Numbered from the whole stretch's first letter, positions 1,062-54,818 are shown. The stretch is DNA of 63,275 bases, filler included, from Armatimonadota bacterium (GCA_031400935.1; 9 parts of 9 records of this genome joined end to end with filler, not necessarily neighbours in it); one strand, 5' to 3'. Numbers and translations: made by a program. Notes: generated by a model from the sequence alone, not told the origin.

Positions 1062-1142
1062 CCCCTCCCTTTTTCGAGGAACGCCTGCCCCGCCGTAGGG
1101 AAATGAAATCGGGAAGAAAGAGGGAGGGGTTGGAGTGGGAGT
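1062..1142. repeat. Intergenic hairpin repeat, GAGGAACGA-loop family A, with a ~31-nt insertion in the loop
   Basis: Stem 1062-1075 pairs with 1116-1129; GAGGAACG at 1076-1083; near-identical to 31005-31052. Confidence 0.8.
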
Positions 1143-1153
1143 TCCGGGTTATT

Positions 1154-2293
1154 TTATGAAACACTTCCCAACTTCAAAATTTCTGCAAGAGTTGTCTCAG
1201 CCGTCTTCTCCCAACTAAATTGCTTTGCCCTCTCAATTCCAGTTTCGACCATTTGCTCCCGGTCAACAGCACCGTCCAAAAACTTTTCCATCATCGTTGC
1301 CATTTCTTCCACATTTTCAGGATCAAAATAGAGAACAGCATCGCCGCCGACTTCGGGCAGCGCGCCCCGGTCGCTTGTCAGAACCGGTGTGCCATACATC
1401 ATGCCCTCTAGGACTGGAATGCCAAACCCTTCGTCAATCGAAGCGCAAATGAATGCCTCAGATCGAGCGAAAAGATCGGGAAGGTTTTCGTCTAGCACGT
1501 AGCCTAGAAATACGACCCTGTTTTCGAGCCCAAGATTTGAGACTGAATCAAAGATGGAACTTTCGTTCCAACCCTTTCCTCCACCAATTACAAGTCCAAA
1601 GTCATCTTCATTAGACTCTTGGCAGAGTTTGCCAAACGCTTCGATCAGCCTGCCCAGATTCTTTCGTGGCTCTAGAGTCCCCAAAGTGAAGAAGTAGCGA
1701 TCAAATGGAACCCCCAAACCTTGCAACCTTTCTTTGGAGACTGAAGAGTACGTTACTCTCTCGCCAACGTTCCCCGGTCCGTTTGGAGTGACGACAACTG
1801 AATTTGAGCTTACGTTCGGAAATCGCTTTAGTAACCGATCTTTGGTGTTTTGACTGACCGAAAAAATGAGATCACTTTTCAAAATCTGCTGGGTGGCTAG
1901 ACCTTTCATAGATTCCAAAACCGACTCATCGAACGCCTGCGGATGATCAAATGGAAACAAATCATGAACAGTTACAGCTTTCTTGATGAGGGAATGATTG
2001 CACGTTGGGCCTGTCAGCACAAAGAGCACATCAATTCGATGTCTAAGTAAATATGGCGTACGGTGAAAAGCCCTCCACAGACGATATTTCTCTGGTATTA
2101 CTTTGAGGTGAAAGTTTTCTCTTGTAGTCCAATCTGAGGGAACTTCAAATGCGGATGTTGCCATCAAATGCCACTCGTGCCCTTCTCCAATACGTAGCAA
2201 ATGGTCAATGATGGAATAGCTGTACCGCCCAACGCCTGCATGGCGAAAGTTGGCACCTCCAACCAGATTTTCTGCTTGAATGGCAATCCGCAT
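1154..2293 (-). CDS. Glycosyltransferase family 4 (mannosyltransferase-like)
   Basis: GVGRY, VTVHDL, GTLEPRKN, EGFGIPVLEGM, FSWEKTA. Confidence 0.92.
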   Translation of the reverse strand: MRIAIQAENLVGGANFRHAGVGRYSYSIIDHLLRIGEGHEWHLMATSAFEVPSDWTTRENFHLKVIPEKYRLWRAFHRTPYLLRHRIDVLFVLTGPTCNHSLIKKAVTVHDLFPFDHPQAFDESVLESMKGLATQQILKSDLIFSVSQNTKDRLLKRFPNVSSNSVVVTPNGPGNVGERVTYSSVSKERLQGLGVPFDRYFFTLGTLEPRKNLGRLIEAFGKLCQESNEDDFGLVIGGGKGWNESSIFDSVSNLGLENRVVFLGYVLDENLPDLFARSEAFICASIDEGFGIPVLEGMMYGTPVLTSDRGALPEVGGDAVLYFDPENVEEMATMMEKFLDGAVDREQMVETGIERAKQFSWEKTAETTLAEILKLGSVS

Positions 2294-2296
2294 GGC

Positions 2297-2854
2297 TTAC
2301 AGCTTCAGCATTTGACCTTCGACGGAGACGCCTCGATTTTGGCCTTGCCTCGGCGGAATTGGAAGGAGTTTTTCAGGCAATCCGTGCGCATTTCGAGTCA
2401 GATCACTGCTGTCAAAGAGCAGAGAGGTAGTTGGGGGATTTGGTATGTCATCTTTGTATTTTCGACTGCATTGATCGTTCATCGCATATCCAAATTTTCC
2501 GGGCTGATCTCGATACTCAGGCGAAACTAGCTTTTTCGCACTCTCGTTCTTGTCCATATCATAGGCCCTCATCCGATTTTCAACTTCTACCATCCAGCCG
2601 GAACCATGAGGGAAAGCGTCTTCGCTTTCGTGGTAGAGCATCATCGCCTGGTGCATAGACTTGAAATTCTGCATCGTGTTTCCATCGTAGGTTCGCTTGT
2701 CTACCTTTTCAAATAGACCGACCTTCCATGCCGACTTTATCACCGGCCCGAGCCACCAGCCCAGTCCAACAAGCACAACCAGCCCAAAAATGAGGCAGCC
2801 TCTCCTTCTTTTGCGTGGCGTGGATTCAGAAATCGGTTCGCTTTGCTCTTCCAT
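2297..2854 (-). CDS. Membrane-anchored protein with DUF1559-like (pseudopilin-type) globular domain
   Basis: Start MEEQS at 2854; RKRRRGCLI plus TM helix; NFKSMHQAMMLY..., GYAMN, LLFDS, degenerate H-X9-DG-like tail. Confidence 0.55.
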   Translation of the reverse strand: MEEQSEPISESTPRKRRRGCLIFGLVVLVGLGWWLGPVIKSAWKVGLFEKVDKRTYDGNTMQNFKSMHQAMMLYHESEDAFPHGSGWMVEVENRMRAYDMDKNESAKKLVSPEYRDQPGKFGYAMNDQCSRKYKDDIPNPPTTSLLFDSSDLTRNAHGLPEKLLPIPPRQGQNRGVSVEGQMLKL

Positions 2855-2918
2855 TTTGGTTATAGACGAAGTTTGGCATGTCAGAGAACTTTGAAGCCGG
2901 GCAAAGTAAACTTCATTT

Positions 2919-3896
2919 GTGCAACCTCGCCAAATTCCCTTGATTTGCAAACCGACTCCCATGCACCGATTGGAGAGGCTTTCGAACGCATTGAAGACCG
3001 ATCTATGGATCAAGCGCGACGACCTAACGGGGTTTGGCTTTGGAGGAAACAAGGGGAGGAAGATCGAGTTTCTGTTGGCCGAGGCGATTGATTCAAAAGC
3101 GACCGCTATAGTGTGCCAAGGCGCGATTCAGTCTAATTTTGTCCGTCAATTAGGGGCGGCGTGCTCGATGTTTGGCTTGCGATGCGTAGCAGCGGTAATG
3201 AACATGCCCTATTACGCGGCGGCGGGCAAGCCCACCGGAACAAAGCACGTTGGTGGGGGCAATCGAATTCTGGACGATTTGTTTGGAGTCGAATTGCGAA
3301 TATTCCCTGATGGCGATTGGGAGCAACTTGCGAAACACGCTGGCGAAGTGGCATTGGAACTCACCTTACAAGGCGAATCGCCCTATCTCATTGCAATCGG
3401 CGGATCGTCCGCTCTAGGGGCGTATTCATTTCATCTCGCTGGAGAAGAAGTAATTGCGACAGGCGAACAGTTTGACTTTTTAGTAACCCCCAGCAGCAGC
3501 GGAAGCACTCATGCGGGACTGGCATATTGCTTTCAAGGCACCAAAACGAAAGTGATCGGAATTTCTGCGGACCCCGACCCAGATGATGAATTGGCGCATG
3601 ACATTGTCAGTCTTTGCGATTTAGTTGGAGGCATCACTGGTATTGAAAAGAAAATTAGAAGAGCCGATATTGATTTGCGTATGGGATATTGCGGCGAGGC
3701 TTATGGCATTCCCAGTGAAGCTGGAACAAAGGCAATAGAACAATTCGCGAAAAGGGAAGGGATTATTCTTGATCCGGTTTATTCTGGAAAGGCAGCGGCG
3801 GGGCTTTTTGCCCTGATTGAGTCAGGCGAGATTGGCGGAAAGATTCTGTTTTGGCACACAGGCGGCTCCCCGACCTTGTTCACGACCCCGCAATAG
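2919..3896 (+). CDS. dcyD: D-cysteine desulfhydrase / ACC deaminase family PLP enzyme
   Basis: LWIKRDDLTG..GGNKGRKIEF, GAIQSN, SSSGSTHAG, LDPVYSGK, WHTGG. Confidence 0.85.
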   Translation: MQPRQIPLICKPTPMHRLERLSNALKTDLWIKRDDLTGFGFGGNKGRKIEFLLAEAIDSKATAIVCQGAIQSNFVRQLGAACSMFGLRCVAAVMNMPYYAAAGKPTGTKHVGGGNRILDDLFGVELRIFPDGDWEQLAKHAGEVALELTLQGESPYLIAIGGSSALGAYSFHLAGEEVIATGEQFDFLVTPSSSGSTHAGLAYCFQGTKTKVIGISADPDPDDELAHDIVSLCDLVGGITGIEKKIRRADIDLRMGYCGEAYGIPSEAGTKAIEQFAKREGIILDPVYSGKAAAGLFALIESGEIGGKILFWHTGGSPTLFTTPQ

Positions 3897-4362
3897 CGCT
3901 CGACCGAACTGGAGCAAATGGATTCTTCGCATAGCTAGCAGGAGGATCAAGGAATCGGTAAACACATACAGCCAGAAAAACAGCAACAAAGCCCAACAGA
4001 ATCCGATTCGCGGCTTTTGAATAAACAAAAAATCTTTGCTGCTTCCAAGCCCAAAACGCTGCAATTGCAGATGCGCTAAACGCCAAATACAAAAAAGGTC
4101 CAAACTGATGCGCTTGAAACGAGGTCGTAATCTTGCCGTGCAACAATGCTGTCCAGCTTGTCGTCAAGCCGCATCCAGGGCAAGGACGATTCAACAGAAA
4201 AGCGCTCGCGCACGGCGGCAATCCGAGTTGGCGGTGCGTTCCATGTCCGTCGGGATGCGGGGTTAGAATGAAGCCAATGATGGTTATGGCAGCCCAAACT
4301 CCAAACCAAAGCAAGTAGCTCGAAACAGCTTTTTTGGTGGCTGCTGGCTCAGTTCGAAGCAA
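3880..4362 (-). CDS. DUF2752 membrane protein
   Basis: GTHRQLGLPPC...PCPGCGLTTSW motif with TM helices; TTG start inferred overlapping truB end. Confidence 0.75.
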   Translation of the reverse strand: MLRTEPAATKKAVSSYLLWFGVWAAITIIGFILTPHPDGHGTHRQLGLPPCASAFLLNRPCPGCGLTTSWTALLHGKITTSFQAHQFGPFLYLAFSASAIAAFWAWKQQRFFVYSKAANRILLGFVAVFLAVCVYRFLDPPASYAKNPFAPVRSSAIAGS

Positions 4363-5221
4363 CGATTGCCTCCAGCGGAATGACGCATTCTGGCTGTAAC
4401 ATTGGGCCATCGGCGTGCGCAATTCCAATGATCTCGCCAGCCGGATCAGCGAGTGCAACCTTGCCCGAAACGCCTCTTTGTCCAGCACCGATTGGCATTC
4501 CGTTGCGAATGGCGGCGACCTCAGTTTCGTTGAGTTTCAGAATCGTCATGGGTTTGAGGGCTTCCGAAAGGGGCATCAAGCGGCTTGGTTCAAGCTCTTC
4601 TATTGAATTTGCGCCTTCGATGCGAAACCTGCCTGCCTGGGTTCGGTGAAGGCCGCAAAGGTGCGCCCCGCACCCAATCGCCTCGCCTAAATCATGTGCA
4701 AGTGTTCTCATGTATGTCCCACCAGAACAAATAACGCGAATTTCGGCGGTTTCGTTGTGCCAATCCTCGAATTTGATGTCGTCAATTTGCACGATTCGGG
4801 CTTGCCTTACTACTTCGATGCCCTTTCTTGCATAGGTGTAAAGAGGTTTCCCATCCTTTTTTACAGCCGAATACATCGGCGGCATTTGTTCGATTCGACC
4901 CAAAAATTTCGCTTTGGCAGATTCGGCGATTTTTTCAATATTGGTTGGAACAGTTCCTTCAAAAATCACTTGCCCCTCAATGTCTTGAGTATCCATTGCG
5001 ATCCCAAAACGAACTTGGCAAATATATTCCTTTGGTTCCAAAGACAAATATTGAAGGAACCGAGTTGCGGGGCCGATTGCAACAACGAGCAATCCCGTGG
5101 CGATCGGGTCGAGCGTCCCAGCATGGCCGACACGCTTGGTGCCAAGCTTGCGCCGGATTCCGTTCACGACATCATGCGAGGAAATGCCCGAGGGCTTGTC
5201 AATTAATGCGATCCCAAGCAT
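4349..5221 (-). CDS. truB: tRNA pseudouridine(55) synthase
   Basis: DKPSGISSHDVV, VGHAGTLDP, PPMYSAVKKDGKPLY, CSGGTYMRTLAHDLG. Confidence 0.97.
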   Translation of the reverse strand: MLGIALIDKPSGISSHDVVNGIRRKLGTKRVGHAGTLDPIATGLLVVAIGPATRFLQYLSLEPKEYICQVRFGIAMDTQDIEGQVIFEGTVPTNIEKIAESAKAKFLGRIEQMPPMYSAVKKDGKPLYTYARKGIEVVRQARIVQIDDIKFEDWHNETAEIRVICSGGTYMRTLAHDLGEAIGCGAHLCGLHRTQAGRFRIEGANSIEELEPSRLMPLSEALKPMTILKLNETEVAAIRNGMPIGAGQRGVSGKVALADPAGEIIGIAHADGPMLQPECVIPLEAIVASN

Positions 5222-6171
5222 TCTCGCATCCTTGGAACGACTAGAGAAACTACTTCTGAAATCGGCATATCAAACGAGCATCCAGCCGCATTGTGATGCC
5301 CGCCGCCGCCAAATTCGCGGGCTACAGCTGCAACGTCGTGCTTGCCTCTTGACCGAAGGCTCACCCTCACCCAATCTGGCTTTGTTTCCCGAAAAAGGGC
5401 GGCGATTTCTACTGAACTGATCGAAAGCATCTCGTTCACAAAGCCTTCAGTATCCTCGTCTTTGGCGCCGACAAGCTGAAATTGATCATGGGTCATTTGC
5501 CCCCACGCCACCCGATTCTGAACTTCTAAAGTCATGGTTTCAAGCAGAAATCCTAAGAGTCGAACGGCTGCCAGAGGTTTGCGCTGAAAAATCTCTTCAG
5601 AAACTAATCCAATGTTCCCGCCTGCTTCGAGAAGGCGACTGGCAAGCATGAGAGCCTCCGCATTTGTGTTTCGAAATCGGAAGCTGCCGGTATCCGTTAC
5701 AATCCCAGTCAGAAGGCAAGTCGCCATTTCAGGAGTGATTTCTGCATCCATTTCCAATAACAACCTTGCCAAAATGGCACAAGTCGCGGCGGCTGTTTGA
5801 TCAATAATTCGCAGATCGCCGGGTGCCTCGTGTGGAATATGGTGATCAATTACTACGAGCCGCTTGGCTTTAGAAAGATGTTCCGCGGGGTCGCCAAGCC
5901 GCTCAATTGAGTCCAAATCGAGCATGACGGCCAGATCGTGCGATTCCATTTCAGGCTTCAGCTTTACTTTTTCAATATGAGGCAAGAACTCTAAATTCGC
6001 CGGCGGAACATGGTGGCAAAGAACTTCGTTTGCTAAACCAATCGCATCAAAGTAAAGTGAAAGTGCAATTGCTGAACCTAAAGCATCTCCGTCTGGGTTC
6101 AAATGCGTACCGATCAGCGCCGAAGAAGCCGACTGACATTCAGATTGGAATTGGGATGCAGTTGACAGCAT
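5203..6171 (-). CDS. nrnA: DHH/DHHA1 bifunctional oligoribonuclease / PAP phosphatase
   Basis: HLNPDGDALGS, IDHH, GIVTDTGSF, SLRS, GGGGH; adjacent to truB. Confidence 0.93.
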   Translation of the reverse strand: MLSTASQFQSECQSASSALIGTHLNPDGDALGSAIALSLYFDAIGLANEVLCHHVPPANLEFLPHIEKVKLKPEMESHDLAVMLDLDSIERLGDPAEHLSKAKRLVVIDHHIPHEAPGDLRIIDQTAAATCAILARLLLEMDAEITPEMATCLLTGIVTDTGSFRFRNTNAEALMLASRLLEAGGNIGLVSEEIFQRKPLAAVRLLGFLLETMTLEVQNRVAWGQMTHDQFQLVGAKDEDTEGFVNEMLSISSVEIAALFRETKPDWVRVSLRSRGKHDVAAVAREFGGGGHHNAAGCSFDMPISEVVSLVVPRMRECLGSH

Positions 6172-6334
6172 AAAGGTTCCCGACGAGCTTCAAGCTTACT
6201 TTATTGGGCGCGATTTGTTCGGATCGGCAGCTATTCGGTATGGATTAGTTGCTTCGTATGGGTTCAATGGATGCGGAGCTTTAGTTCGAGCTTTTAAGAG
6301 CATAACCTAACAGTTGCTCCACGCTCCTTTCGAT

Positions 6335-9557: not shown

Positions 9558-10438
9558 TTCAGCCCACCGAATCCCCAAGCATGAGTCATCGCAAGACCCG
9601 CTGTAATGAGAAAACCGATTACGGAAGCAATCACATGCTGATCAGTTAGCAAAATCATGTCTGGCTCTTCTCCATCTCCTTCGTGGAACACCCGATAAAG
9701 GTACCGGCAGATTCCGTAGGCAACGAAAAACGCTGTTGCGAGAAGTCCAGGATGCGCTTTTGCAGTTGCGCTCTCGGAGGAATAAATCCCGTAAGAGATC
9801 ATCGAAGCTCCAGCGAAGATTCCGACCATCATATTGAGAATTGGCAGGCTATAGCCTCCTAAACTTTCTCTCGATACGGTTCGTTCTTCACCCATTTTGA
9901 TAAATTCATCACGACGCTTTGCAAAGCCGAGCATAAGCGCCAACGTCATCGTGCAAACAAATAGCCAATTGGAGATCGTCACATTTAAGGCGAGCGGTCC
10001 CAGAACGGCTCGCATCACAAAACCAATCGCAATCAAAAAGACATCGGTAATAGGGAGTTTTTTGAAGCCGAGATTGTAAATTGCTTGCAAGCAAAAATAA
10101 GCCACGATGAGCCATAAGCAAGCAGGATTGATTGAGAACGCGACTGACAGTGCCCCCGCCGAAAGAGCGAAAACAAGGACCAATGCCATAGCGGTTGATA
10201 CCGTTCCAGACGCGATTGGTCGATCCTTCTTCCGCGGGTGATTTCGATCCCGTTTCGCGTCAATCAGATCGTTGACTACATAAGTTGCAGAACTCGCTAA
10301 GCACATTGCCGCGAATGCCATGAGTGTAAGGCGAATGGACTCAGGATCGAATGCTGCGGTAAAAAGCATCGCGGCAAAGACCAAAAAGTTTTTGGTCCAT
10401 TGCTTTACCCGCAGTAAGTGCAAAATCGCGATTGCCAT
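9554..10438 (-). CDS. ubiA: UbiA-family polyprenyl-phosphate phosphoribosyltransferase (DPPR synthase)
   Basis: LRVKQWTKN, YVVNDLIDAKRDRNHPRKKDRPIASG, GFAKRRDE. Confidence 0.9.
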   Translation of the reverse strand: MAIAILHLLRVKQWTKNFLVFAAMLFTAAFDPESIRLTLMAFAAMCLASSATYVVNDLIDAKRDRNHPRKKDRPIASGTVSTAMALVLVFALSAGALSVAFSINPACLWLIVAYFCLQAIYNLGFKKLPITDVFLIAIGFVMRAVLGPLALNVTISNWLFVCTMTLALMLGFAKRRDEFIKMGEERTVSRESLGGYSLPILNMMVGIFAGASMISYGIYSSESATAKAHPGLLATAFFVAYGICRYLYRVFHEGDGEEPDMILLTDQHVIASVIGFLITAGLAMTHAWGFGGLK

Positions 10439-10459
10439 AGTTGTCTCAAAGGCACAAAA

Positions 10460-10560
10460 TCACATAGCACTTTCGTACACGCGCCACGTTTGTTCCAGTA
10501 CAGCCTCAACGGAATAACGATTTTCAACGAACTTTCGTCCCTCCAATCCCATTTTTGTTC
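10460..10560 (-). CDS. 3' end of a GT4 glycosyltransferase (cut by contig end; not in ORF track)
   Basis: Own translation: ...KMGLEGRKFVENRYSVEAVLEQTWRVYESAM*, a typical GT4 C-terminal helix. Confidence 0.7.
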
Positions 10561-10660
10561 NNNNNNNNNNNNNNNNNNNNNNNNNNNNNNNNNNNNNNNN
10601 NNNNTTAATTAATTAANNNNNNNNNNNNNNNNNNNNNNNNNNNNNNNNNNNNNNNNNNNN
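10561..10660. other. Artificial contig linker (also at 42374-42473, 47443-47542, 50662-50761, 53504-53603, 56154-56253, 58759-58858, 60960-61059)
   Basis: Identical 44N + TTAATTAATTAA + 44N spacers with stops in all six frames; most flanking genes are cut mid-sequence. Confidence 0.99.
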
Positions 10661-11494
10661 CTCCAGGTAGCTGGCGGCATTCTCAATTGATTCGGCGAGA
10701 GATTGGACGAACTTGTTTGGCCGGAGCTTTCTTCCGGCAGACAAATCTGAAATGAGATGAGAATAGCCCACGATTCGATCAATCGAAGTTCTGAAATCAA
10801 CAGAAACGTCCTTTACAATTCCGAGTCGCTTTGTTACATCGGGGGTTGCCTTCGCTAGCGCATCGTCTAGCCCTTCGATTGCAAAGTCGAATACAGAAAC
10901 ATTTGCATAAAGGCTTGCTGCCAAATTGCCTATGTCGTGACTTACTTTTCCCATTCCGAGCAACGAACTTGCTCGTGTAGATTCTTCACTTAGCTTTGCG
11001 TTCAAAATGGCAAGGGTAGCTACTGCGGCAACTGTGTCGAGAACCGTTATGTCGCTTTCTTCAAACATCCCGCCAACTTTGTTGATTAGCTGAACGACGC
11101 CAATCGGGGATTCATCTTGCATCTGCAAGGGAACTGTGATCATAGATCGAACCTGCACTCCGGTTTGCTGCTCAATTCGATTCAGTTGATCGCCTGGCTT
11201 GGGTGGAAATTCACTAATCAGCGTTTTACCGGTCTGAAAAACTTTGCCTGCGGCGCCAAAATTATCTGGGATGTTCTCAAACTCAAGTTTTTCGCGGACT
11301 TCCTCAGGCAAAACATGGCGAAAGACGAGAGTTTGGTTCGAATCGTCATGCAAATAGATCGTTCCGCCGCTGGCGCCAACAGCCTGAACGCAAATGCCAA
11401 GAACACGCGGAAGCAAGAGATCAATATGCCCGCTGCCAGCTAACATCCTCGTCGCGGTTTGAACTGCGAGCAACAAATCTTCTTTTGAAGCCAT
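10661..11494 (-). CDS. GAF-domain sensor histidine kinase (C-terminus cut by contig end)
   Basis: GAF (RSMITVPL, IGVVQLINK, F.ESD), then H-box VSHDIGN. Confidence 0.82.
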
Positions 11495-29771: not shown

Positions 29772-31004
29772 ATGAGTGAGCCATTCAAGACACAGCTTCC
29801 CAACGGAGTTCGAATTCTCGTTGAGCCAATTGGGCATGTCCAGTCGGCGGCAGTTGGGCTTTGGTGCAAGACCGGAAGCCGTCATGAATTCGAAAACGAA
29901 GCTGGAATTACTCATTTGATCGAGCACATGCTGTTCAAAGGCACTCAAAAACGAACCGCAAAGCAAATTGCAGAAACTATCGAAGGCCGCGGCGGAATGC
30001 TCAACGCATTCACGGATAAAGAGTCCACCTGCTATTACTGCCGAGTATTGGCTGATGAAGTTGAAACTGGGATCGAAGTGCTCTCTGACATGATGCGAAA
30101 CTCGCTCATTGAACCTGAAGAATTGAAGAGGGAACAAGGCGTCGTCCTAGAGGAAATCAAACGAGGCGAAGACGAACCTGGCGACCATGTTCATGAGCTT
30201 CACCTGCAAAACCGGTGGGGAAATCACGTTTTGGGAAAGCCGATAATTGGAACTCGAGAATCGGTTAGCTCATTTGATTCAAGCAATTTGCGAACCTATA
30301 TGGATCGAAGATATGTCAGCGATAATGTATTGCTTTCTATTGCAGGAAATGTTGATCCTGACCAAGTTGTAGCTTGGGCCACCGAACATTTGGGAGAAAT
30401 TCCTGCCGGCGGCGGTGATTCTCAACCGGATCGTCCTTCAGGATCGAAAGGGAACAACTATGTCAAGAAGGAAGTTGAGCAAGTCCATTTTTGCATCGGT
30501 GGCGAGGGTACTTCGATCTACGACGAAGAGATTTACACGTTGGCAGTATTAGATAGCTCGCTTGGCGGGTCAATGAGCAGCCGACTTTTCCAAGAAATTC
30601 GCGAAAAACGGGGGTTGGTTTATTCGATCGGCTCTTACTCGCTATCGTATGGCAGTGGCGGCGCATTCACGGTCTACGGAGGAACTGGAAATGAAACCTG
30701 GGCACAGGTGCAAGACCTTGTGCGAATCGAGTTTGACAAAGTAATGAAAAACGGCTTGACTGATGATGAACTAGATCGAACAAAGCGAAGTATTTGCGGC
30801 TCCCTTGTCTTAGGTCTCGAAGGAATGAGTTCAAGAATGATGCGAAACTCTCGAAATGAACTGAATCATGAACGCCATATCCCGGTCAAAGAAACAATGG
30901 GCAAAATCAATGCGATTACTAATTCTCAATTGGTTGATTTGGCACAACGAGTACTTTCAGTGGATTCCGTGAGCACGACGGCAATTGGGCCAACTGCCAA
31001 TTAG
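29772..31004 (+). CDS. M16 (pitrilysin-family) zinc peptidase
   Basis: HLIEH inverted zincin motif, NAFTDKE, SSRLFQEIREKRGLVY. Confidence 0.95.
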   Translation: MSEPFKTQLPNGVRILVEPIGHVQSAAVGLWCKTGSRHEFENEAGITHLIEHMLFKGTQKRTAKQIAETIEGRGGMLNAFTDKESTCYYCRVLADEVETGIEVLSDMMRNSLIEPEELKREQGVVLEEIKRGEDEPGDHVHELHLQNRWGNHVLGKPIIGTRESVSSFDSSNLRTYMDRRYVSDNVLLSIAGNVDPDQVVAWATEHLGEIPAGGGDSQPDRPSGSKGNNYVKKEVEQVHFCIGGEGTSIYDEEIYTLAVLDSSLGGSMSSRLFQEIREKRGLVYSIGSYSLSYGSGGAFTVYGGTGNETWAQVQDLVRIEFDKVMKNGLTDDELDRTKRSICGSLVLGLEGMSSRMMRNSRNELNHERHIPVKETMGKINAITNSQLVDLAQRVLSVDSVSTTAIGPTAN

Positions 31005-31052
31005 CCCCCTCCTTTTTCGAGGAACGAGAAAGAGGAGGGGGTTGGGGGTGGA
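31005..31052. repeat. Intergenic hairpin, GAGGAACGA-loop family A (clean copy)
   Basis: 14-bp stem 31005-31018/31028-31041 closing loop GAGGAACGA 31019-31027. Confidence 0.85.
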
Positions 31053-31148
31053 GTAAAATCGCATGCAAATTGAGTAGTAGCCCGCGCACTCCCAAAATTT
31101 CCTGCTATAACTAATATTCAGGAATTTTGTACTTAATAGGAAGCATCC

Positions 31149-42620: not shown

Positions 42621-42678
42621 CCCCTCCCTTATTTCGAGGAACGAAGGAAAAATGGCATACGGGTTGGGGAGGGAGAGT
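42621..42678. repeat. Degenerate GAGGAACGA-loop family A element
   Basis: CCCCTCCCTTATTTC-GAGGAACGA...GGGTTGGGGAGGGAG. Confidence 0.7.
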
Positions 42679-46581: not shown

Positions 46582-46584
46582 AGG

Positions 46585-49060: not shown

Positions 49061-49076
49061 GATTTGAGTCTGAGGA

Positions 49077-49286: not shown

Positions 49287-49346
49287 CCAATGCGTCAAAC
49301 TCGGCGCACTCCCAAACGCCGTCCCATAAAACGTAAAATACAATTC

Positions 49347-50519
49347 ATGGCATCAGAAGTCCCTGGAAGGTTTGGAGCGTACGGCGGGAGATATGTGCCA
49401 GAAACGCTAGTGCCAGCCCTCGATGAAGTTGACCAAGAATTTCGAACCGCCTGGGCAGACTCAGATTTTAGAAATGAATTTGAGCGCTTGCTCCATGAAT
49501 ACGTTGGTCGCCCCACGCCAATTACTTTTGCAGAAAGACTTTCAGAAGACACCGGACTCCATGTTACGATCAAGCGCGAAGACCTGAACCACACTGGCGC
49601 TCATAAAATCAACAACGCACTTGGCCAAGTTTTGCTTGCTCGACGAATGGGCAAAGAGAGAATCATCGCGGAAACGGGTGCCGGACAACACGGAGTCGCA
49701 ACCGCAACGGTTTGCGCCCTTTTTGGGCTGCCATGCGAAGTCTATATGGGCGAAGAAGACTGTGTCCGACAGCAGTTAAACGTTTTCCGAATGAAGCTTT
49801 TGGGCGCAAAAGTCATTCCGGTTTCGAGTGGAACAAAAACGCTCAAAGACGCCCTTAACGAGTCACTGAGAGATTGGGTGACGAATGTTCGAACGACGCA
49901 TTACGTAATTGGGACAGCCGCTGGGCCGCACCCGTATCCGACAATGGTTCGAGAGTTTCAATCGGTTATCGGGAAAGAAGCAAGACAGCAATATCAAGAT
50001 CGTTTCAACTGTTTGCCAGATTCAGCCGTTGCCTGCGTCGGCGGCGGATCGAACGCAATCGGATTCTTTGCGCCATTTTTAGAAACAAATGTGAAGTTGA
50101 TAGGCGTAGAAGCGGCGGGCCACGGAATTGAGACTGGGAAGCACGCGGCGCCATTGAATGCTGGAACTCCAGGGGTACTTCATGGCTCGTTTTCGTATGT
50201 GATTCAAGACGAATTTGGACAAATTCAAGAGACTCATTCCGTTTCGGCGGGGCTAGATTATCCGGGAGTTGGAGCGGAACATTCGTTCTTGAAAGATTCA
50301 GGAAGAGCCTCTTACGAATCTGCAACAGATACTGAAGCACTCGATGCTTTTCGCTGGGTCGCCGAGAGAGAAGGAATCATTCCTGCATTTGAATCCGCAC
50401 ATGCATTCGCTATACTGCGGCGCAGCGATCTTTTCCAAACTGGAGAACGAGTCCTTGTAAATCTAAGCGGCCGCGGCGACAAAGACATGGAGACCGCAAG
50501 CCGAATTCTGAAATTGTAA
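49347..50519 (+). CDS. trpB: Tryptophan synthase beta chain
   Basis: [50 protein letters not shown]. Confidence 0.98.
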
Positions 50520-50526
50520 GCACAAG

Positions 50527-50661
50527 CTATTTCTTTTCTTCGAGCCGTTTGAGGTTTGGAGACATATTTGACATCATCGAGTTAATGTCCATTGAACCAA
50601 GTTGGGATGTTGCTTGAGCAGAACTTGGAGGTCCCCATTGAAGCTCTTTTGTATCTTCAGA
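50527..50661 (-). CDS. 3' end of an unknown gene (cut by contig end)
   Basis: Open frame SEDTKELQWGPP...KRLEEKK*. Confidence 0.45.
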   Translation of the reverse strand, partial: SEDTKELQWGPPSSAQATSQLGSMDINSMMSNMSPNLKRLEEKK

Positions 50662-50761
50662 NNNNNNNNNNNNNNNNNNNNNNNNNNNNNNNNNNNNNNN
50701 NNNNNTTAATTAATTAANNNNNNNNNNNNNNNNNNNNNNNNNNNNNNNNNNNNNNNNNNNN

Positions 50762-51418
50762 AACTTCCCGTTCACATTGGAAGACGTGCCGATTTCCATC
50801 CTTGCTAAGGGGGCAGAACTTCCGCAGTGGCAACTTGACAGGTTCAAGCTCGTCTCTGTACTTCAACCTAGCCCCACAAAGACTACAAGACCTATTAAGG
50901 CAATTGAGTTGGTCCCCATGGGCGCAGCGCGAATCCGGATCACGGCATTTCCATGGATATCCAAAGACGCAAAGCGATGGCAAGCTCCGCCTACTGTGCT
51001 TCCATTCCACCCATCTGCCTCTCATGTTTATGAAGACGACGACTTGAATGCTGTCTGTGACCAAATTTTGCCTCGATCTTCCGGAGATCACGGCATTCCT
51101 AGGTTCACCTGGTGGCCGAACAAAGGCACGGAAGAGTGGATTGAATACCGATTCGATTCACCCAGGCTGGTTTCAAGCGTCAGGGTGTATTGGTTCGACG
51201 ATACCGGCAGAGGAGAGTGCAGAGTCCCGAAGTCGTGGTTGCTTCATGGGTTCATAAATGGCAAGCCAGTTGACTTGTCACTATTGAGCTCGCCAACATG
51301 CGAGAGAAATAAGTACAACATATTGAAGTTTCTTCCGACAAGAGTTGACCGTTTACGGATCAGCGCGAAATTGCAGGACGAGTTCTCCGCGGGAATTCTG
51401 GAATGGCAGGTGAGATAG
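50762..51418 (+). CDS. C-terminal part of a GH127/GH146-like glycoside hydrolase with discoidin-type domain
   Basis: IELVPMGAARIRITAFP; RFTWW...EWIEY.F, VYWFDDTGRGECRVP.SW, SAGILEW. Confidence 0.72.
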   Translation, partial: NFPFTLEDVPISILAKGAELPQWQLDRFKLVSVLQPSPTKTTRPIKAIELVPMGAARIRITAFPWISKDAKRWQAPPTVLPFHPSASHVYEDDDLNAVCDQILPRSSGDHGIPRFTWWPNKGTEEWIEYRFDSPRLVSSVRVYWFDDTGRGECRVPKSWLLHGFINGKPVDLSLLSSPTCERNKYNILKFLPTRVDRLRISAKLQDEFSAGILEWQVR

Positions 51419-51438
51419 GATAATGGATTAATATCATA

Positions 51439-52368
51439 CTATTTCTTCAAAGGCAGTCTAGTTCTGTAGATGGAAGATATTTTCCTCTCCTTGCGATATT
51501 CAGGCCTCGGGTGAATGTCGCCTGGTGAACTCAGTTCCCATTTGTAGATTTCGGTTGAATTCATCAAATTTAGAATAGGTACAAATCGCTTGTTCGAGTA
51601 AAGGTCTCTCGGCCACACAACGGGATTCTGGATTGTGTTAGCAATGCAAATCTTGTCATCTGTCAAGAGGTTCCAAACAAAGACGTTCGGATAGTCAACA
51701 ATTACGGCGTGATTGTCATCTGCCATGCCTGTAAAGTTACTTCGATATGAATCTTCGTCTACAAAATCGTAATCTCTCCTAAGGTTTCCCGATTCAAAAT
51801 AGACGACATCAATGAACGAATGAAAATGTCCTGGCTCCAATATGTGATCATCATAGGAAAAGCGATATTTCCACTTTGTCGGTACGTTTGTATTCGCAAT
51901 TGGAGCTAGCGCAATGCGTACTGGTTCTTCGATTGCTGGAACAAGTCCGCCAGAATCAATGACGATCTGCGTCGCAAGTTGTGCTGGAGTCGTATCAACG
52001 ACCGTATAACCGCCTGGAGACGGCACACATGGCATTGTGATTCGTCCCTCAGCTTTTGCGGTTGGCAGACTTAGATCAAGGTGCATCCCTCGAACGATTC
52101 CGCACCGAATTACCAACTCTCGCTCTCTGCCATCCAAGGAAACTCGCATAATGTTTCCCGTTTCAAAATCCTGGTAATAGAGGCACTGGTTCGAGTTGGC
52201 AAGTGATTTGACTTCACCGATTGGCTGCAGGCGCCCTCTAGCACTTGCCATATCCGATTCCGACCCAGAATAGGTTATTTTCTCCTTCTTTGATGAGCAC
52301 GACGTGCAGGAGCCTAGGCACAACAAAAGCGCGATTCCGCAAATCTGAGAGCGAATTGCTGACTTCAT
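51439..52368 (-). CDS. Lipoprotein of unknown function
   Basis: LGS-C lipobox; AT-richer than neighbours by eye. Confidence 0.7.
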   Translation of the reverse strand: MKSAIRSQICGIALLLCLGSCTSCSSKKEKITYSGSESDMASARGRLQPIGEVKSLANSNQCLYYQDFETGNIMRVSLDGRERELVIRCGIVRGMHLDLSLPTAKAEGRITMPCVPSPGGYTVVDTTPAQLATQIVIDSGGLVPAIEEPVRIALAPIANTNVPTKWKYRFSYDDHILEPGHFHSFIDVVYFESGNLRRDYDFVDEDSYRSNFTGMADDNHAVIVDYPNVFVWNLLTDDKICIANTIQNPVVWPRDLYSNKRFVPILNLMNSTEIYKWELSSPGDIHPRPEYRKERKISSIYRTRLPLKK

Positions 52369-52371
52369 TCG

Positions 52372-53502
52372 TTATTCCTGACTCATCAGTCTCGTCGCAG
52401 CACTCACCGGACCAAACACCTTCCGAACTGGAAATCCGGAACCCACAGCAAAACTCTCGCCAAAGAATCCCCAAGCAGCACATCCGTCGAGTGATTCGGG
52501 CTCCAATAGATGAAACGCGAGCAAACCCAATGGCTGATCCGCTCTCACTAGGTATGAGCCAGAAGGAGCTGAAAACGGCGCGGACGCAAACGTGCCCGCT
52601 AAGGTGACTAGCTTGTGCCCCTGAAACGCTTGGCCGGCTTGCTTAAACTCTTTGATTTCAAATCGCTCGGCGTCTCCGGACCAATTTTCGCGTAGCTTTT
52701 CAACTGAAATTCCTTGTGCTAAGAGCAAATTGACTGCCTTTGTTGCGTCAGAAGGCAGCAAATACGCCATGGGAACGCGGGCGGTTCTAGATGGAACAAA
52801 TCTGTCCCAAACAGGCATTGTGACCGTTTTGAACTCGGTTGGAGCCTTCATGTAGTTGATCTCACTTTGCTTGCGATCAATTTCCAAAATCACCGGTTCT
52901 TCGCCGCGAGATGCCATCTCGAAACGAATGCCGACGTCCCGTTTCCCGCCAATCGAGCGCACCATTTTTGCCCAACGTTCATCAGCCCCACGAGTCATTT
53001 CGATGACCTTTTGAATGTTGCGAATGGTTTCTGTAAGCACGCTTCGCACAAATGCAAGCGTGGATTCAACCCTCAACTTGAACGGCTGAAAACTGGCTGC
53101 TTCGCTGAGAACTGCGATTCGATTACGGGTTCCGGCATAGTTAGTAACGTACCGAGGCTCCCACCCGAATGTGGCATAGACGTCTTTGCCATCACGCTTT
53201 TCGGCGTTGCCGTAATCAATCAGATTCCAACCCAGCTTTGCGAGTGTGTCTTTTCGAATCTTGGGAAGCAGAACGTCGCGCGTGAACCCAAGCACTTTTG
53301 CATCGCTGGTTGGGTTCAGGCAAGGCGAATAGGTGAGAACATAGCCATGACGGGTTCCGTTCGTAGTGTGCAGGTCCATCATCACTTCGGGGTCCCAAGT
53401 GTTGTAAACGTGCTTCAAAACGGCCTGCATTTCGGGCGATTCGGCCTTCATGCAATCACGGTTGAGGTCTAGCCCGCCGCCATTTGCCCGTTCGCCAACC
53501 GG
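52372..53502 (-). CDS. M14 zinc carboxypeptidase family (N-terminus cut)
   Basis: RAN..GLDLNRD.MKAESPE, DLHTTNG, PRY..NY.G.RN, LLEPES.DG. Confidence 0.88.
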   Translation of the reverse strand, partial: PVGERANGGGLDLNRDCMKAESPEMQAVLKHVYNTWDPEVMMDLHTTNGTRHGYVLTYSPCLNPTSDAKVLGFTRDVLLPKIRKDTLAKLGWNLIDYGNAEKRDGKDVYATFGWEPRYVTNYAGTRNRIAVLSEAASFQPFKLRVESTLAFVRSVLTETIRNIQKVIEMTRGADERWAKMVRSIGGKRDVGIRFEMASRGEEPVILEIDRKQSEINYMKAPTEFKTVTMPVWDRFVPSRTARVPMAYLLPSDATKAVNLLLAQGISVEKLRENWSGDAERFEIKEFKQAGQAFQGHKLVTLAGTFASAPFSAPSGSYLVRADQPLGLLAFHLLEPESLDGCAAWGFFGESFAVGSGFPVRKVFGPVSAATRLMSQE

Positions 53503-53603
53503 GNNNNNNNNNNNNNNNNNNNNNNNNNNNNNNNNNNNNNNNNNNNNTTAATTAATTAANNNNNNNNNNNNNNNNNNNNNNNNNNNNNNNNNNNNNNNNN
53601 NNN

Positions 53604-53792
53604 CCAGTCAGGGCTCGTTACGAGTGCCAACGACAACGATGGGCCAACGGTTATAGATGCAGTTGCAGAAGTGTCAACTACTTGCGCTCGCGACATTGAG
53701 CACAGAATTACCATTCCTAGAGTCGCCAAGAGCGACGATTTCATTTTTCTCTTAATCAATTTGTTTCCCTCCCCAAAATGAATCCCATCCAT
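53604..53792 (-). CDS. 5' part of a secreted protein (cut by contig end)
   Basis: Signal peptide ending SRA-Q, then ATASITVGPSLSL; GGGGAGG upstream. Confidence 0.55.
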
Positions 53793-53896
53793 GATGTCAA
53801 CGGATTCACATTGGAACTTATTCCTGTTATTGGTTAGCGAGAGGAGAATCTTTATGTTTGGGGTTGGTAAGTGGTTGGCGGACTAATGTGAAGGGC

Positions 53897-53945
53897 ACAA
53901 AAACGTGTCCCTCGACCCTTGCTTCGCGGTGAGGGCCGAGGGATC
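53897..53945 (-). terminator. Probable terminator hairpin downstream of lipoprotein gene
   Basis: Stem 53908-53919/53932-53943 with a T run on the minus strand. Confidence 0.5.
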
Positions 53946-53952
53946 AAAATTA

Positions 53953-54402
53953 CTATTCTGGATAATACTGGGTCACTATTACTTCGTTTTCTGGATCTGA
54001 CAGTAATCGGGTCAATATCACTATTGATTTTCCCTTGACCACAGCATCGAGGGAAATCCGGCCAGAATCAGGAGGCACATGTAGTAACAAACGAGCCTCG
54101 TTCGTTGTCATGTCGTACAGATACCCTTCCGGCAAATATAGACCAGACCCTCTCTCAACACTTACAAAAAAGTACCGATGACCTTCGAATTGTAGGTTTC
54201 GAGTAAAGGGTGTTCTTCCTGAATTCTTCAATTCTTCAAGAATGTTAACTATTTCCGAATTCATTTTTTCCGTCCCTTTAGATTTTCTATTGAACTGTTT
54301 GGAATCCAAATTGTCGGCTTTAGGTATCGGTGTGGTGGAACAACTACTCAGTACCAAGCTGACAAGTAAGATCCCAATTACCGTTCCAACAACATCTTTC
54401 AT
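53953..54402 (-). CDS. Lipoprotein of unknown function
   Basis: MKDVVG...LSS-C lipobox. Confidence 0.7.
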   Translation of the reverse strand: MKDVVGTVIGILLVSLVLSSCSTTPIPKADNLDSKQFNRKSKGTEKMNSEIVNILEELKNSGRTPFTRNLQFEGHRYFFVSVERGSGLYLPEGYLYDMTTNEARLLLHVPPDSGRISLDAVVKGKSIVILTRLLSDPENEVIVTQYYPE

Positions 54403-54442
54403 CGTGAGGACACACAATAATGCTGGCAAACTGTGTCATACA

Positions 54443-54818
54443 CGGGTGGGCGGGACATCTTTCAGACTCCTCTAAATGGGGGCCACGGCCAAGCGATTCG
54501 TACTGATCCGAATTGTCGCTGAACATGGATAGCTTGACCGTGCTCATTTCCCAATCTTACTCACTTTTCCTCAAGCACTGACAACTTCGTTCCTCATTTG
54601 GCAGTGGTACCAACAATAGATCATTTCAAGTTATCCTGCGACGGGTGGCCGGGCTCAGTAGTAATTCCCTTTTGTGGGTGCCACTGTTATCTGAGGAACC
54701 AAGATTGCAGTGAGTTACAGAAGAAGAAGTCAGATTGGTAAATCAGCACTGCCTTGCTCGTTCCTCGCAAGACAGTGGCACCCATTGGGAGGTCTTTCAA
54801 AGATATCCCGCCCAACCG
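54443..54818. repeat. Nested REP/REPIN-like island: outer 38-nt inverted repeat enclosing three CACTG-N6-[GAGGAACGA]-N6-CAGTG hairpins (family B)
   Basis: Outer arms 54443-54480/54781-54818 (30/38 match by hand); hairpins 54576-54606, 54682-54712, 54747-54777. Confidence 0.82.

What the first reader, a model, noticed from the sequence alone, without database searches (positions are those of the whole stretch)
1062..54784. Two unrelated hairpin families share one invariant 9-nt loop, GAGGAACGA
Seen: six intergenic hairpins on four contigs. Family A (1062-1129, 31005-31041, 42621-42678) is CCCCTCC(C)TTTTTC-[GAGGAACGA]-GAAAGAG(G)GAGGGG with a TTGGRGTGGAG-like tail. It starts right after AG, twice the stop codon TAG. 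Family B (54576-54606, 54682-54712, 54747-54777) is CACTG-N6-[loop]-N6-CAGTG-GCACCCA; the N6 stems differ between copies but largely keep pairing (CCTTGC/GCAAGA, TTATCT/AGATTG). The loop is the same in both families and occurs on either strand, with one GAGGAACCA variant. Known: REPs are hairpins mobilised by HUH RAYT transposases. Inference: a fixed loop on interchangeable stems suggests a lineage-specific ssDNA/RNA loop-recognising protein, or a tiny mobile module that parasitises several repeat families. I know of no description of this in Armatimonadota.
Basis: partly seen in the sequence, partly recalled or inferred. Interest (0 to 1): 0.72.

Follow-up and report, generated by a model that had tools for sequence, protein, structure and literature searches.

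The report
Shared mini-hairpin cap on REP repeats
Two unrelated families of short hairpin repeats in this bacterium, one of which flanks the genome's hairpin-cutting (RAYT) transposase gene, carry the same nine letters at their tip; these letters likely fold into a tiny, very stable DNA cap that also sits on unrelated repeats in many other bacterial phyla.

Summary
The six hairpins exist at the stated places, on four contigs. The 9-mer is far above chance: 4 in the window against 0.56 expected, and 64 in the genome against 18 for the reversed control. 40 of those 64 cap long hairpins.

The loop is not invariant and is probably not an open loop. Variants GACGAAGGA and GAGGTACGA occur in both families. 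Positions 3 and 7 covary (G..C or C..G) and the middle loop base is free. This fits C:G, G·A, A·G, S:S' closed by a GNA triloop, which is a DNA "CGAG block" plus mini-hairpin.

Family B is the REP of the genome's one bona fide RAYT gene, which lies on contig C50 between inverted B copies. The tag GGGTG(G/C) follows this RAYT clade in other genomes; the cap does not. Family A, tagged (T)AG and lying at gene 3' ends, is likely a second REP family.

The 11-mer CGAGGAACGAG is enriched on unrelated stems in six Armatimonadota families. It is also enriched in Gemmatimonadota, Actinomycetota and Mesorhizobium, including genomes with no detectable Y1 transposase.

Best reading: a structural single-stranded-DNA cap reused by REP-like repeats, not a lineage-specific loop reader. 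I found no description of it. I rate it a new variant of a known kind, of moderate interest.

The parts
1059..1061 (+). TAG stop codon of a 352-codon frame. Its AG is the 5' tag of family A copy 1.
1062..1129 (+). Family A copy 1. 5' arm CCCCTCCCTTTTTC (1062-1075), cap truncated to GAGGAACG (1076-1083), insert, then A and the 3' arm GAAAGAGGGAGGGG (1116-1129).
   Evidence: The arms match the family consensus.
1084..1114 (-). 31-nt mini-element nested inside the cap of copy 1. It is the inverted form of the repeat TCCCGATT..TTCCCT..GGCGGG.
   Evidence: The same element follows the cap of B copies at C27:89524 and C50:11507, and of a G001 B copy (L049).
1130..1142 (+). G-rich tail TTGGAGTGGGAGT of family A copy 1.
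31003..31054 (+). Family A copy 2, intact. AG of stop TAG (31002-31004), 13-bp stem, 11-nt cap CGAGGAACGAG (31018-31028), tail TTGGGGGTGGAGT (31042-31054).
   Evidence: No such hairpin is seen at the matching site of the sister species G001, where the intergenic sequence has diverged.
42621..42678 (+). Family A copy 3, degenerate. 5' arm plus cap GAGGAACGA (42636-42644), 3' arm replaced (42645-42663), tail TTGGGGAGGGAG (42664-42675).
54576..54606 (-). Family B (REP) copy 1. CACTG-N6-GAGGAACGA-N6-CAGTG read on the minus strand, with a degenerate tag (TTGGTAC).
54674..54712 (+). Family B (REP) copy 2 with tag GTGGGTGC. The cap variant GAGGAACCA (54693-54701) breaks the second G·A pair.
54747..54784 (-). 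Family B (REP) copy 3. 11-bp stem, cap at 54758-54766, tag GGGTGC (read on the plus strand as GCACCCA, 54778-54784). It is convergent with copy 2 across a 34-nt spacer, like the pair at C17:100545/100610.

Best explanation
Family B hairpins are the REP repeats of this genome's one REP-associated tyrosine transposase (RAYT) gene, family A is likely a second, (T)AG-tagged REP family, and the nine letters they share likely fold, as single-stranded DNA, into a compact cap that would act as a stable folding nucleus and non-Watson-Crick mark, not as the address of one lineage-specific loop-reading protein.

Shown:
- The RAYT gene lies between inverted B copies.
- The tag GGGTG(G/C) plus the lower stem CACTG is kept, while stem positions 2-6 covary.
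- Inside the 'loop', positions 3 and 7 covary (G..C or C..G), the two flanking GA dinucleotides are fixed, and the middle loop base varies.
- The 11-mer CGAGGAACGAG recurs on unrelated stems in many phyla, including genomes with no detectable Y1 transposase.

Inferred:
- The cap is one 'CGAG block' (C:G, sheared G·A, sheared A·G, G:C) closed by a GNA triloop.
- It folds in single-stranded DNA, for example on the lagging-strand template where RAYT-type enzymes act.
- It helps the long hairpin form against its complementary strand and single-strand binding protein.
- It gives the hairpin a tandem mismatch near the tip, like the bulge that the E. coli RAYT needs.
- REP-like repeats of different origin have therefore adopted it repeatedly.
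For: 1. RAYT link for family B.
- PF01797 finds one place in the genome, C50:10378-10626.
- The 187-aa protein scores 101.2 bits on NF047646 (cut-off 80). Its best solved relative is E. coli TnpA-REP, 4ER8.
- The translation shows HVH and YIHMNPV.
- B hairpins lie 64 nt before its ATG in the plus orientation and 6 nt after its stop in the minus orientation.

2. Strand-specific folding. In 58 capped hairpins the first 13 stem positions hold 610 Watson-Crick pairs, 90 G·T, 14 A·C and 40 other.

3. Fold of the cap in this genome, for GA-x-GAA-y-GA in hairpins with at least 10 of 11 stem pairs:
- x/y is GC in 34, CG in 10, CT in 1, GG in 1, and none in the other 12 combinations.
- The flanks are GA/GA in 44 and any other pair in at most 1.
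- The triloop is GAA in 44 and GTA in 5.

4. Independent check in an Arachnia genome (Actinomycetota):
- G..C form 277 copies and C..G form 166 copies.
- Uncompensated forms 8 and 15 copies.

5. The middle loop base varies. Non-A forms are enriched over controls: 114 against 27 in G052, 95 against 10 in G335, 81 against 9 in G163.

6. Both minor cap forms occur in both families of this genome.

7. The tag follows the RAYT and the cap does not. Homologues of 34-55% identity in G028, G082, G095, G174, G276, G302 and G209 are flanked by hairpins tagged GGGTG(C/G) or GTGC, with other stems and tips.

8. Spread of the 11-mer.
- 21 of 301 Armatimonadota genomes carry 30 or more copies, with controls of 0-17 (counted by eye from its table).
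- At least 121 inverted doublets occur in many phyla, where about 2 are expected by chance (my arithmetic).
- Counts against control: 251/5, 343/1, 277/2, 80/1 and 20/1.

9. Published structural work, passages read.
- Two CGAG strands form C:G, sheared G:A, A:G, G:C in DNA hairpins by NMR (PMC10085684).
- GCGNAGC mini-hairpin DNA is extraordinarily stable and nuclease-resistant, and the RNA counterparts are considerably less stable than the DNA ones (PMC13037366).
- The E. coli RAYT needs the tandem mismatch bulge of its REP while the upper half is non-specific; group 3 enzymes need loop bases (PMC8266576).

10. In Arachnia, 35 of 45 distinct caps have GTAG within 22 nt upstream and 0 of 45 downstream. 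The cap therefore also sits on classical GTAG-tagged REPs.
Against: - No physical measurement exists for this 11-mer.
- Nearest-neighbour DNA folding leaves the nine letters as an open loop in three of four sense-strand copies, and gives a different 3-bp tip for family A. It cannot show the cap.
- The commonest form closes the triloop with G:C. From memory, C:G is the more stable closing pair in DNA. The abstract of PMC3201870 says only that stability depends strongly on the closing pair.
- Exact identity of 11 letters across phyla is tighter than simple convergence on 'any stable cap' would predict. The distribution is also patchy, and most genomes of the same families lack it. Both facts fit a specific partner or horizontal spread as well.
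- Among the 120 of the 121 fetched cross-phylum doublets that could be scored, only 20 have 7 or more of 8 pairs directly beside the 11-mer. Most are long palindromes in which the 11-mer faces its own complement. My test misses stems that continue through purine mismatches.
- Family A has no RAYT beside it in this assembly. A is co-oriented with the upstream gene more often than not (11 sense only, 4 antisense only, 5 both, of 37), which also suits an RNA role.
- Gene calls in my scripts are crude open-frame calls.
Confidence: 0.5

Rival explanations
1. A dedicated protein reads the cap. This could be a RAYT or another, still unidentified, widely spread hairpin-specific enzyme or host factor that binds the CGAG-GNA-CGAG tip specifically. 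All cap-bearing repeats would be its substrates, so the cap is an address and not only a stable fold.
For: - The same 11 letters recur on unrelated stems in many phyla, with very low controls.
- The same two minor forms co-occur in two phyla.
- Both families in this genome keep tag, lower stem and cap while the middle of the stem drifts, as expected if foot and tip are contacted.
- Loop or bulge recognition by RAYTs is documented (PMC8266576, passages).
- Distribution is patchy within families.
Against: - The cap does not follow the RAYT clade found here.
- G163 (117 copies) and G052 (151 copies) have no NF047646 hit at E<=1e-8.
- Arachnia, the Gemmatimonadales genome and Mesorhizobium have no PF01797 hit at E<=1e-5. 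The last three are of unstated completeness.
- The most exposed base of the triloop is the most variable.
- No candidate protein was identified. The one DUF559 gene lies 1.6 kb from the nearest cap.
Confidence: 0.28
2. The hairpins work as RNA. They would be 3'-end stabilisers, terminators or protein-binding hairpins in transcripts, with a K-loop-like GA..GA tip. The cap would then be an RNA motif.
For: - G·T (G·U) wobbles far outnumber A·C (90 against 14).
- Family A abuts stop codons, and 16 of 37 copies follow a sense frame of 100 or more codons within 60 nt.
- REPs are known to act on mRNA (abstracts of PMC3479197 and PMC3733652).
Against: - No Rfam family reaches its gathering score on the window or on 40 related loci. 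In the B-cluster region two matches at E 2.5-3.7 lie far below their thresholds.
- There is no T-run after the hairpins.
- Copies lie in both orientations relative to genes, and as inverted pairs around the RAYT gene.
- GNA triloops with sheared G·A are a hallmark of DNA mini-hairpins, and the RNA forms are much less stable (PMC13037366, passage).
- A K-turn or K-loop needs a 3-nt bulge, which the 3:7 pairing leaves no room for.
Confidence: 0.12
3. The cap is, or descends from, a tiny mobile module that inserts into the loops of existing hairpins. Unrelated stems would then have acquired it secondarily.
For:
- A separate 31-41-nt mini-element is nested exactly at the cap in four copies, in either orientation.
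- A 19-nt stretch TTATTCGAGGAACGAGAAT is shared by some A and some B copies.
Against: - Nine to eleven letters are too few to carry recognisable ends.
- No filled and empty pair for the cap itself was found.
- The inner covariation is explained by folding alone.
- No enzyme is known for this.
Confidence: 0.1

Closest known systems
REPtron: REP repeats with a REP-associated tyrosine transposase (RAYT / TnpA-REP; E. coli structure 4ER8)
   Same: - A Y1 HUH transposase gene passes the NCBIfam RAYT model and lies between inverted copies of a hairpin repeat.
- That repeat is scattered in intergenic DNA, often in inverted pairs, with a short conserved tag 5' of the stem and strand-specific folding.
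- A tandem mismatch near the tip resembles the AA/GC bulge of E. coli REPs (PMC8266576 and PMC3733652, passages).
   Different: - The tag is GGGTG(G/C), not GTAG, for family B.
- The tip is a defined 11-nt module shared with a second family of unrelated stem, and with repeats in other phyla.
- Family A has no RAYT beside it.
DNA mini-hairpin GCGNAGC and the 'CGAG block' (sheared tandem G·A between C:G and G:C)
   Same: CGAG-GNA-CGAG is one CGAG block closed by a GNA triloop. The covariation seen (closing pair kept, middle base free, GA/GA fixed) is what these structures predict.
   Different: - The published examples are phage origins, a human promoter and synthetic oligos.
- In two searches of the paper library I found no report of this composite as the tip of bacterial genomic repeats.
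- The usual closing pair here is G:C, not C:G.
Origin hairpins of HUH Rep proteins (geminivirus/circovirus nonanucleotide loop) - recalled, no call
   Same: A conserved nine-letter tip sits on stems that differ between elements, and is handled by HUH enzymes on single-stranded DNA.
   Different: - In those hairpins the loop is open and holds the nick site.
- Here the 'loop' is internally paired, and no nick site is known.
Phage N4 virion RNA polymerase promoter hairpins (5-bp stem, 3-nt GGA/GAA loop; PMC13037366, passage)
   Same: A single-stranded DNA hairpin with a GNA triloop is recognised as a structure.
   Different: - The inverted doublet of the 11-mer was not found in 2.9 million viral contigs.
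- Copy numbers of hundreds per chromosome do not suit promoters.

Membership tests
REPtron (RAYT + REP), for family B | Y1 HUH transposase of the RAYT type with an HUH motif and a catalytic Tyr segment | tested here: met
   NF047646 scores 101.2 bits against a cut-off of 80. PF01797 scores 40.6 bits. Best PDB hit is 4ER8 at E 6.1e-5. HVH and YIHMNPV are seen in the translation.
REPtron (RAYT + REP), for family B | Gene flanked by inverted copies of the repeat | tested here: met
   C50:10237-10267 is in the plus orientation and C50:10900-10930 in the minus orientation, around the gene at 10330-10890.
REPtron (RAYT + REP), for family B | Repeat dispersed in intergenic DNA at many copies, forming a hairpin on one strand | tested here: met
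   19 capped B copies, in clusters of 3-4. G·T far outnumbers A·C.
REPtron (RAYT + REP), for family B | Conserved 5' tag that goes with the enzyme (GTAG in the classical case) | tested here: inconclusive
   The tag is GGGTGG or GGGTGC in 14 of 19 copies, and recurs beside homologous RAYT genes in other genomes. It is not GTAG, and its guide role is untested.
REPtron (RAYT + REP), for family B | Single-strand cleavage and strand transfer by the RAYT | not testable with these tools
   This needs a biochemical assay.
GTAG-type REP, for family A | Tag ending in AG directly 5' of the stem | tested here: met
   AG or TAG precedes most of the 37 copies. The six letters before the stem vary apart from the terminal AG.
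GTAG-type REP, for family A | Cognate RAYT flanked by the repeat | tested here: not met
   No Y1 gene in this assembly (95.6% complete) is flanked by A copies. None was found in the G015, G032 or G163 loci examined.
CGAG block + GNA mini-hairpin DNA | C:G / G·A / A·G / S:S' with the inner pair kept through changes on both sides | tested here: met
   This genome has GC 34, CG 10 and unpaired forms 2. Arachnia has 277 and 166 against 8 and 15.
CGAG block + GNA mini-hairpin DNA | Triloop G-N-A with a free middle base | tested here: met
   GAA 44 and GTA 5 in this genome. GTA, GGA and GCA forms are enriched over controls in G335, G052, G163 and G209.
CGAG block + GNA mini-hairpin DNA | Exceptional thermal stability of the DNA form | not testable with these tools
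   Nearest-neighbour folding does not model it.
Any Rfam RNA family | Match at the family's gathering score | tested here: not met
   0 matches on the window. Only a tRNA on 20 Armatimonadota loci. 0 on 20 loci of other phyla.
Kink-turn / K-loop | Three-nucleotide bulge next to the tandem G·A pairs | tested here: not met
   C7 is followed directly by G8 A9, and positions 3:7 pair. The consensus of the motif is recalled.
CsrA/RsmA-binding hairpin | GGA in the loop | tested here: not met
   The compensatory form GACGAAGGA removes the loop GGA yet is kept in hairpins. The motif is recalled.

The most novel reading that the evidence does not exclude
CGAG-GNA-CGAG is the signature of a cross-phylum superfamily of palindromic repeats. 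These repeats are propagated, or kept, by a still unknown hairpin-tip-specific enzyme or host factor that is independent of RAYT/IS200 transposases. Alternatively, the cap itself spreads by slotting into the loops of existing hairpins.
Probability: 0.2. Interest if true: 0.85.

Novelty: new variant of a known kind. Interest (0 to 1): 0.56.

Why it matters
REP repeats are among the commonest non-coding elements of bacterial genomes, yet what makes a hairpin a good REP is known for only a few proteobacterial models. This finding adds several things:
- A defined 11-letter tip, supported by covariation in two phyla, links REP biology to a well-studied class of unusually stable DNA mini-hairpins.
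- The tip recurs on unrelated stems from Armatimonadota to Actinomycetota.
- It gives a concrete, testable determinant that can be swapped, melted and assayed with a RAYT.
- It gives a simple sequence probe for finding REP-like repeats in little-studied phyla.
- It raises the question of why the same tip is kept in genomes where no Y1 transposase was detected.

Tried and rejected
- **Rfam.** Nothing reaches a gathering score on the window. In the B-cluster region only two matches appear at E 2.5-3.7, far below their thresholds. Nothing but a tRNA appears on 40 related loci.
- **Sigma-54 promoter for family B (TGGCAC..TTGC).** The spacing is one base short and half the copies read TGCCAC (reading; consensus recalled).
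- **Hammerhead core, K-loop, CsrA site, boxB.** Their motifs do not fit (recalled consensus; see membership test).
- **5'-UTR reading of family B.** A conserved GAGTAAGATTGGGAAATGAGCACG follows some copies. However, copies lie in both orientations and as convergent pairs, so I treated it as part of a composite repeat.
- **Nearest-neighbour DNA folding.** It confirms the long stems (z -3.2 to -4.1 for intact copies) but cannot model the cap.
- **RAYT as reader of the cap.** Not supported by the comparisons.
- **DUF559.** One gene, 1.6 kb from the nearest cap. Not followed further.
- **Second RAYT-like gene (C15:229355-229750, 75 bits).** Its flanking hairpins look like promoters.
- **Expression.** No RNA holder is listed for this DNA.
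- **Laying contigs of four related metagenome runs.** This gave only short pieces. Family A hairpins occur there with other flanks, but there is no clean empty site.
- **Orthologous site in sister species G001.** It lacks the A copy of 31005, but the intergenic sequence has diverged, so it is not a clean empty site.
- **Viral contigs.** 0 hits for the inverted doublet.
- **Literature.** The 9-mer (430 papers, the 10 listed all unrelated by title) and the 11-mer on either strand (29 papers, 25 listed, all primers or aptamers by title) gave no paper on repeats. 'Repetitive extragenic palindromic' combined with sheared / GNA / trinucleotide loop gave no relevant paper among the 10 listed.
- **Earlier notes of this scan.** A search by sequence found nothing.
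- **Genome-wide triloop census.** No general excess of GNA loops (106 against 109 for the complement class), because background hairpins swamp it.

Full report
**Observation**

The window is nine contigs of one assembly joined by runs of N. The six hairpins are present as described on contigs C30, C36, C37 and C43. GAGGAACGA occurs exactly 4 times in the window, where shuffles expect 0.56, and 0 of 100 shuffles reach 4. Two of the six copies deviate. The copy at 54693 reads GAGGAACCA. The copy at 1076 is GAGGAACG, then a 31-nt insert, then A and the 3' arm. The copy at 42621-42678 has lost its 3' arm.

In the whole genome (2.97 Mb, 67 contigs) the 9-mer occurs 64 times against 18 for the reversed control. 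A loop-blind scan for hairpins with stems of 9 bp or more makes it the commonest 9-nt loop: 22 of 1230, followed by GACGAAGGA with 7 and GAGGTACGA with 4.

**Anatomy of the two families**

I defined members by the cap pattern plus at least 9 of 11 stem pairs. This gives 58 hairpins: 37 of family A, 19 of family B and 2 unclassified.

Family A:
- It reads (T)AG, then CCCC(C)TCC, then 5-6 variable pairs, then the cap, then the complementary arm, then the tail TTGGGG(T/A)GGAGT.
- A sub-form has the stem CCCCTCTCCC.

Family B:
- It reads GGGTG(G/C), then CACTG, then six pairs, then the cap, then CAGTG.
- Stem positions 7-11 are almost fixed.
- Positions 2-6 change on both sides. For example, position 3 is T-A in 7 copies, A-T in 6 and G·T in 5.

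In the first 13 stem positions of the 58 hairpins there are 610 Watson-Crick pairs, 90 G·T, 14 A·C and 40 other. The hairpin therefore forms well on one strand only.

**The 'loop' is a folded cap**

The minor forms GACGAAGGA and GAGGTACGA sit on family A stems and also on family B stems at C28:129745 and C28:129815.

For GA-x-GAA-y-GA inside hairpins with at least 10 of 11 stem pairs:
- x/y is GC in 34 copies, CG in 10, CT in 1 and GG in 1. The other 12 combinations have none.
- The flanking dinucleotides are GA/GA in 44, and any other pair in at most 1.
- The triloop is GAA in 44 and GTA in 5.

An Arachnia genome (Actinomycetota) gives the same picture independently. CGAGGAACGAG occurs 277 times and CGACGAAGGAG 166 times, while the uncompensated CGAGGAAGGAG and CGACGAACGAG occur 8 and 15 times.

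The middle loop base is free. CGAGG[C/G/T]ACGAG is enriched over its control in G052 (114 against 27), G335 (95 against 10), G163 (81 against 9) and G209 (43 against 9).

This pattern is what one 'CGAG block' closed by a GNA triloop predicts. The CGAG block (C:G, sheared G:A, sheared A:G, G:C) was shown by NMR in DNA hairpins (PMC10085684, passages). GCGNAGC mini-hairpins are described as extraordinarily stable in DNA and considerably less so in RNA (PMC13037366, passages). The fold of this particular 11-mer is inferred, not measured, and nearest-neighbour folding cannot show it.

**Family B is a REP with its RAYT**

The Y1 transposase model finds one place in the genome. The 187-aa protein passes the NCBIfam model for REP-associated tyrosine transposases at 101.2 bits against a cut-off of 80. 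Its best solved relative is E. coli TnpA-REP, and the translation shows HVH and YIHMNPV. A B hairpin lies 64 nt before the start codon and an inverted one lies 6 nt after the stop. This is the defining arrangement of a REPtron. The gene is on contig C50, outside the window.

**The tag follows the enzyme, the cap does not**

- Homologues of this RAYT at E<=1e-20 occur in 13 of 301 sampled Armatimonadota genomes, this one included. The closest, at 49-55% identity, are in G028.
- Their flanking hairpins keep GGGTG(C/G) or GTGC before the stem but have their own stems and tips: GCA or GTA triloops and 4-10-nt loops.
- One G028 copy has the very same lower stem as here, but a 17-nt tip with two inner pairs and a GGA loop.
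- Conversely, G015 (64 copies of the 11-mer) has no close homologue.
- G163 (117 copies) and G052 (151 copies) have no RAYT-model hit at E<=1e-8.

**Spread of the cap**

Among 41 relatives the 11-mer CGAGGAACGAG stands out only in this genome (31), its sister species (29), G015 (64), G014 (13) and G032 (17). It sits there on A-like, B-like and quite different stems.

In a sample of 301 genomes of the phylum, 21 carry 30 or more copies, with controls of 0-17. These come from six families (counted by eye). The contexts differ again. One 130-nt palindrome in G063 carries the 11-mer on one arm and the 13-nt form CGAG-CGGAG-CGAG on the other.

My arithmetic expects about 2 by chance. The hits include:
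- Gemmatimonadota (Longimicrobium, Gemmatimonadales)
- Actinomycetota (Arachnia, Nocardioidaceae, Tessaracoccus, Nakamurella, Propionicimonas)
- Bacteroidota
- Desulfobacterota
- Planctomycetaceae
- Mesorhizobium
- Sumerlaeota

Whole-genome counts against controls are 251/5, 343/1, 277/2, 80/1 and 20/1. Three of these five genomes have no Y1 transposase hit at E<=1e-5; their completeness is not stated. In Arachnia the cap sits on classical GTAG-tagged REPs: GTAG lies within 22 nt upstream in 35 of 45 distinct caps and downstream in 0 of 45. Longimicrobium carries CCCCTCTCC stems like the A sub-form here.

Among the 120 of the 121 fetched doublets that could be scored, only 20 show 7 or more of 8 pairs directly beside the 11-mer. 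In most, the two 11-mers face each other in a long palindrome. The cap is therefore not always at a hairpin tip.

**Family A**

- It lies at gene 3' ends. 16 of 37 copies follow a sense frame of 100 or more codons within 60 nt, 9 precede the end of an antisense frame, and 5 do both.
- In the window two copies start in the stop codon TAG, and the first fills a 92-nt gap between convergent genes.
- Several copies form inverted pairs.
- The copy at 31005 has no counterpart at the matching site of the sister species, although that site has diverged.
- The AG tag matches the two positions of GTAG that one RAYT selected most strongly in vitro (PMC8266576, passage).
- No RAYT lies beside an A copy. 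'REP' is therefore a likely reading for A, not a shown one.

**Mechanism**

I take the hairpins to act as single-stranded DNA. I take the cap to serve two ends: it is a very stable nucleus from which the long stem zips up, and it provides a tandem mismatch near the tip of the kind the E. coli RAYT requires (PMC8266576).

This explains:
- the covariation,
- the free middle base,
- the use of the cap on unrelated stems,
- its independence from one transposase clade,
- its presence on GTAG REPs elsewhere.

It does not fully explain why exactly these 11 letters recur, or why the distribution is so patchy. For that reason a dedicated reader remains a serious rival (0.28). An RNA role (0.12) and a loop-inserting module (0.10) are not excluded.

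**Comparison and novelty**

REPtrons, GTAG REPs with complex loops (PMC3733652, passages), the CGAG block and GNA mini-hairpins are all known. I did not find the composite tip described as a recurrent, cross-phylum feature of genomic repeats. The searches were the exact 11-mer on either strand, the 9-mer, and REP combined with structural terms. Subscription-only papers are not covered by these searches.

Earlier notes of this scan record other REP-like hairpins in Armatimonadota, but none with this sequence.

I rate it a new variant of a known kind, with interest 0.56.

Noticed in passing
It is also nested, inverted, inside the cap of the A copy at 1062-1129.
   Followed up: partly
window 31080-31097 (half site); G000 C15:229829, C15:229244 and 16 more: Hairpin family TTTGGGAGTGCG-CGGGCTTGAC-CGCGCTTTT (18 copies). 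At C15:229829 the loop gives TTGACC, then 17 nt, then TATAAT. It looks like a shared promoter module and not a REP.
   Followed up: partly
G000 C15:229355-229750 (outside the window): A second RAYT-like gene (75.4 bits, below the 80-bit cut-off), flanked by two same-orientation copies of the promoter-like hairpin.
   Followed up: partly
G000 C63:16755-17144 (outside the window): A weak Y1-like open frame (29.7 bits). By eye its translation has ETTEL where HUH is expected and F where the catalytic Tyr is expected. Similar weak hits of 155-195 aa recur in many genomes of the family. It may be an inactivated RAYT relative.
   Followed up: no
G000, e.g. C22:52086, C22:52175, C25:10375, C15:15588 (outside the window): A third hairpin family..CG-GGA-CG.. 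followed by CACA. Read on the other strand, it has the loop GTCCC (10 copies). Its tip is also a GNA triloop.
   Followed up: no
window 54540-54575 (minus strand) and C17, C27, C62, C8, C50 copies: A conserved stretch GAGTAAGATTGGGAAATGAGCACGGTCAA follows several B copies by 15-20 nt. B hairpins come as convergent pairs with a 34-nt spacer, a BIME-like mosaic.
   Followed up: partly
L276-L280 (Arachnia genome G335); L137, L191: Capped hairpins form head-to-tail arrays of 42-43, 110 and 135 nt in Arachnia. In a Gemmatimonadales and a Sumerlaeota genome the cap is part of runs of the heptamer CGAGGAA.
   Followed up: partly
L038, L042, L046, L054, L058, L062 (G015): In G015 the 11-mer sits in a longer repeat, followed by runs of the heptamer GTAGTTn. 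Many copies lie at contig ends, so this repeat breaks the assembly.
   Followed up: no
window 31029-31054 and all family A copies: The 3' arm plus tail (GGAGGGGG TT GGGGG T GGAG) holds four G-runs and could form a G-quadruplex as an alternative to the hairpin. REP oligos forming tetraplexes are reported in PMC4690160 (passages).
   Followed up: no
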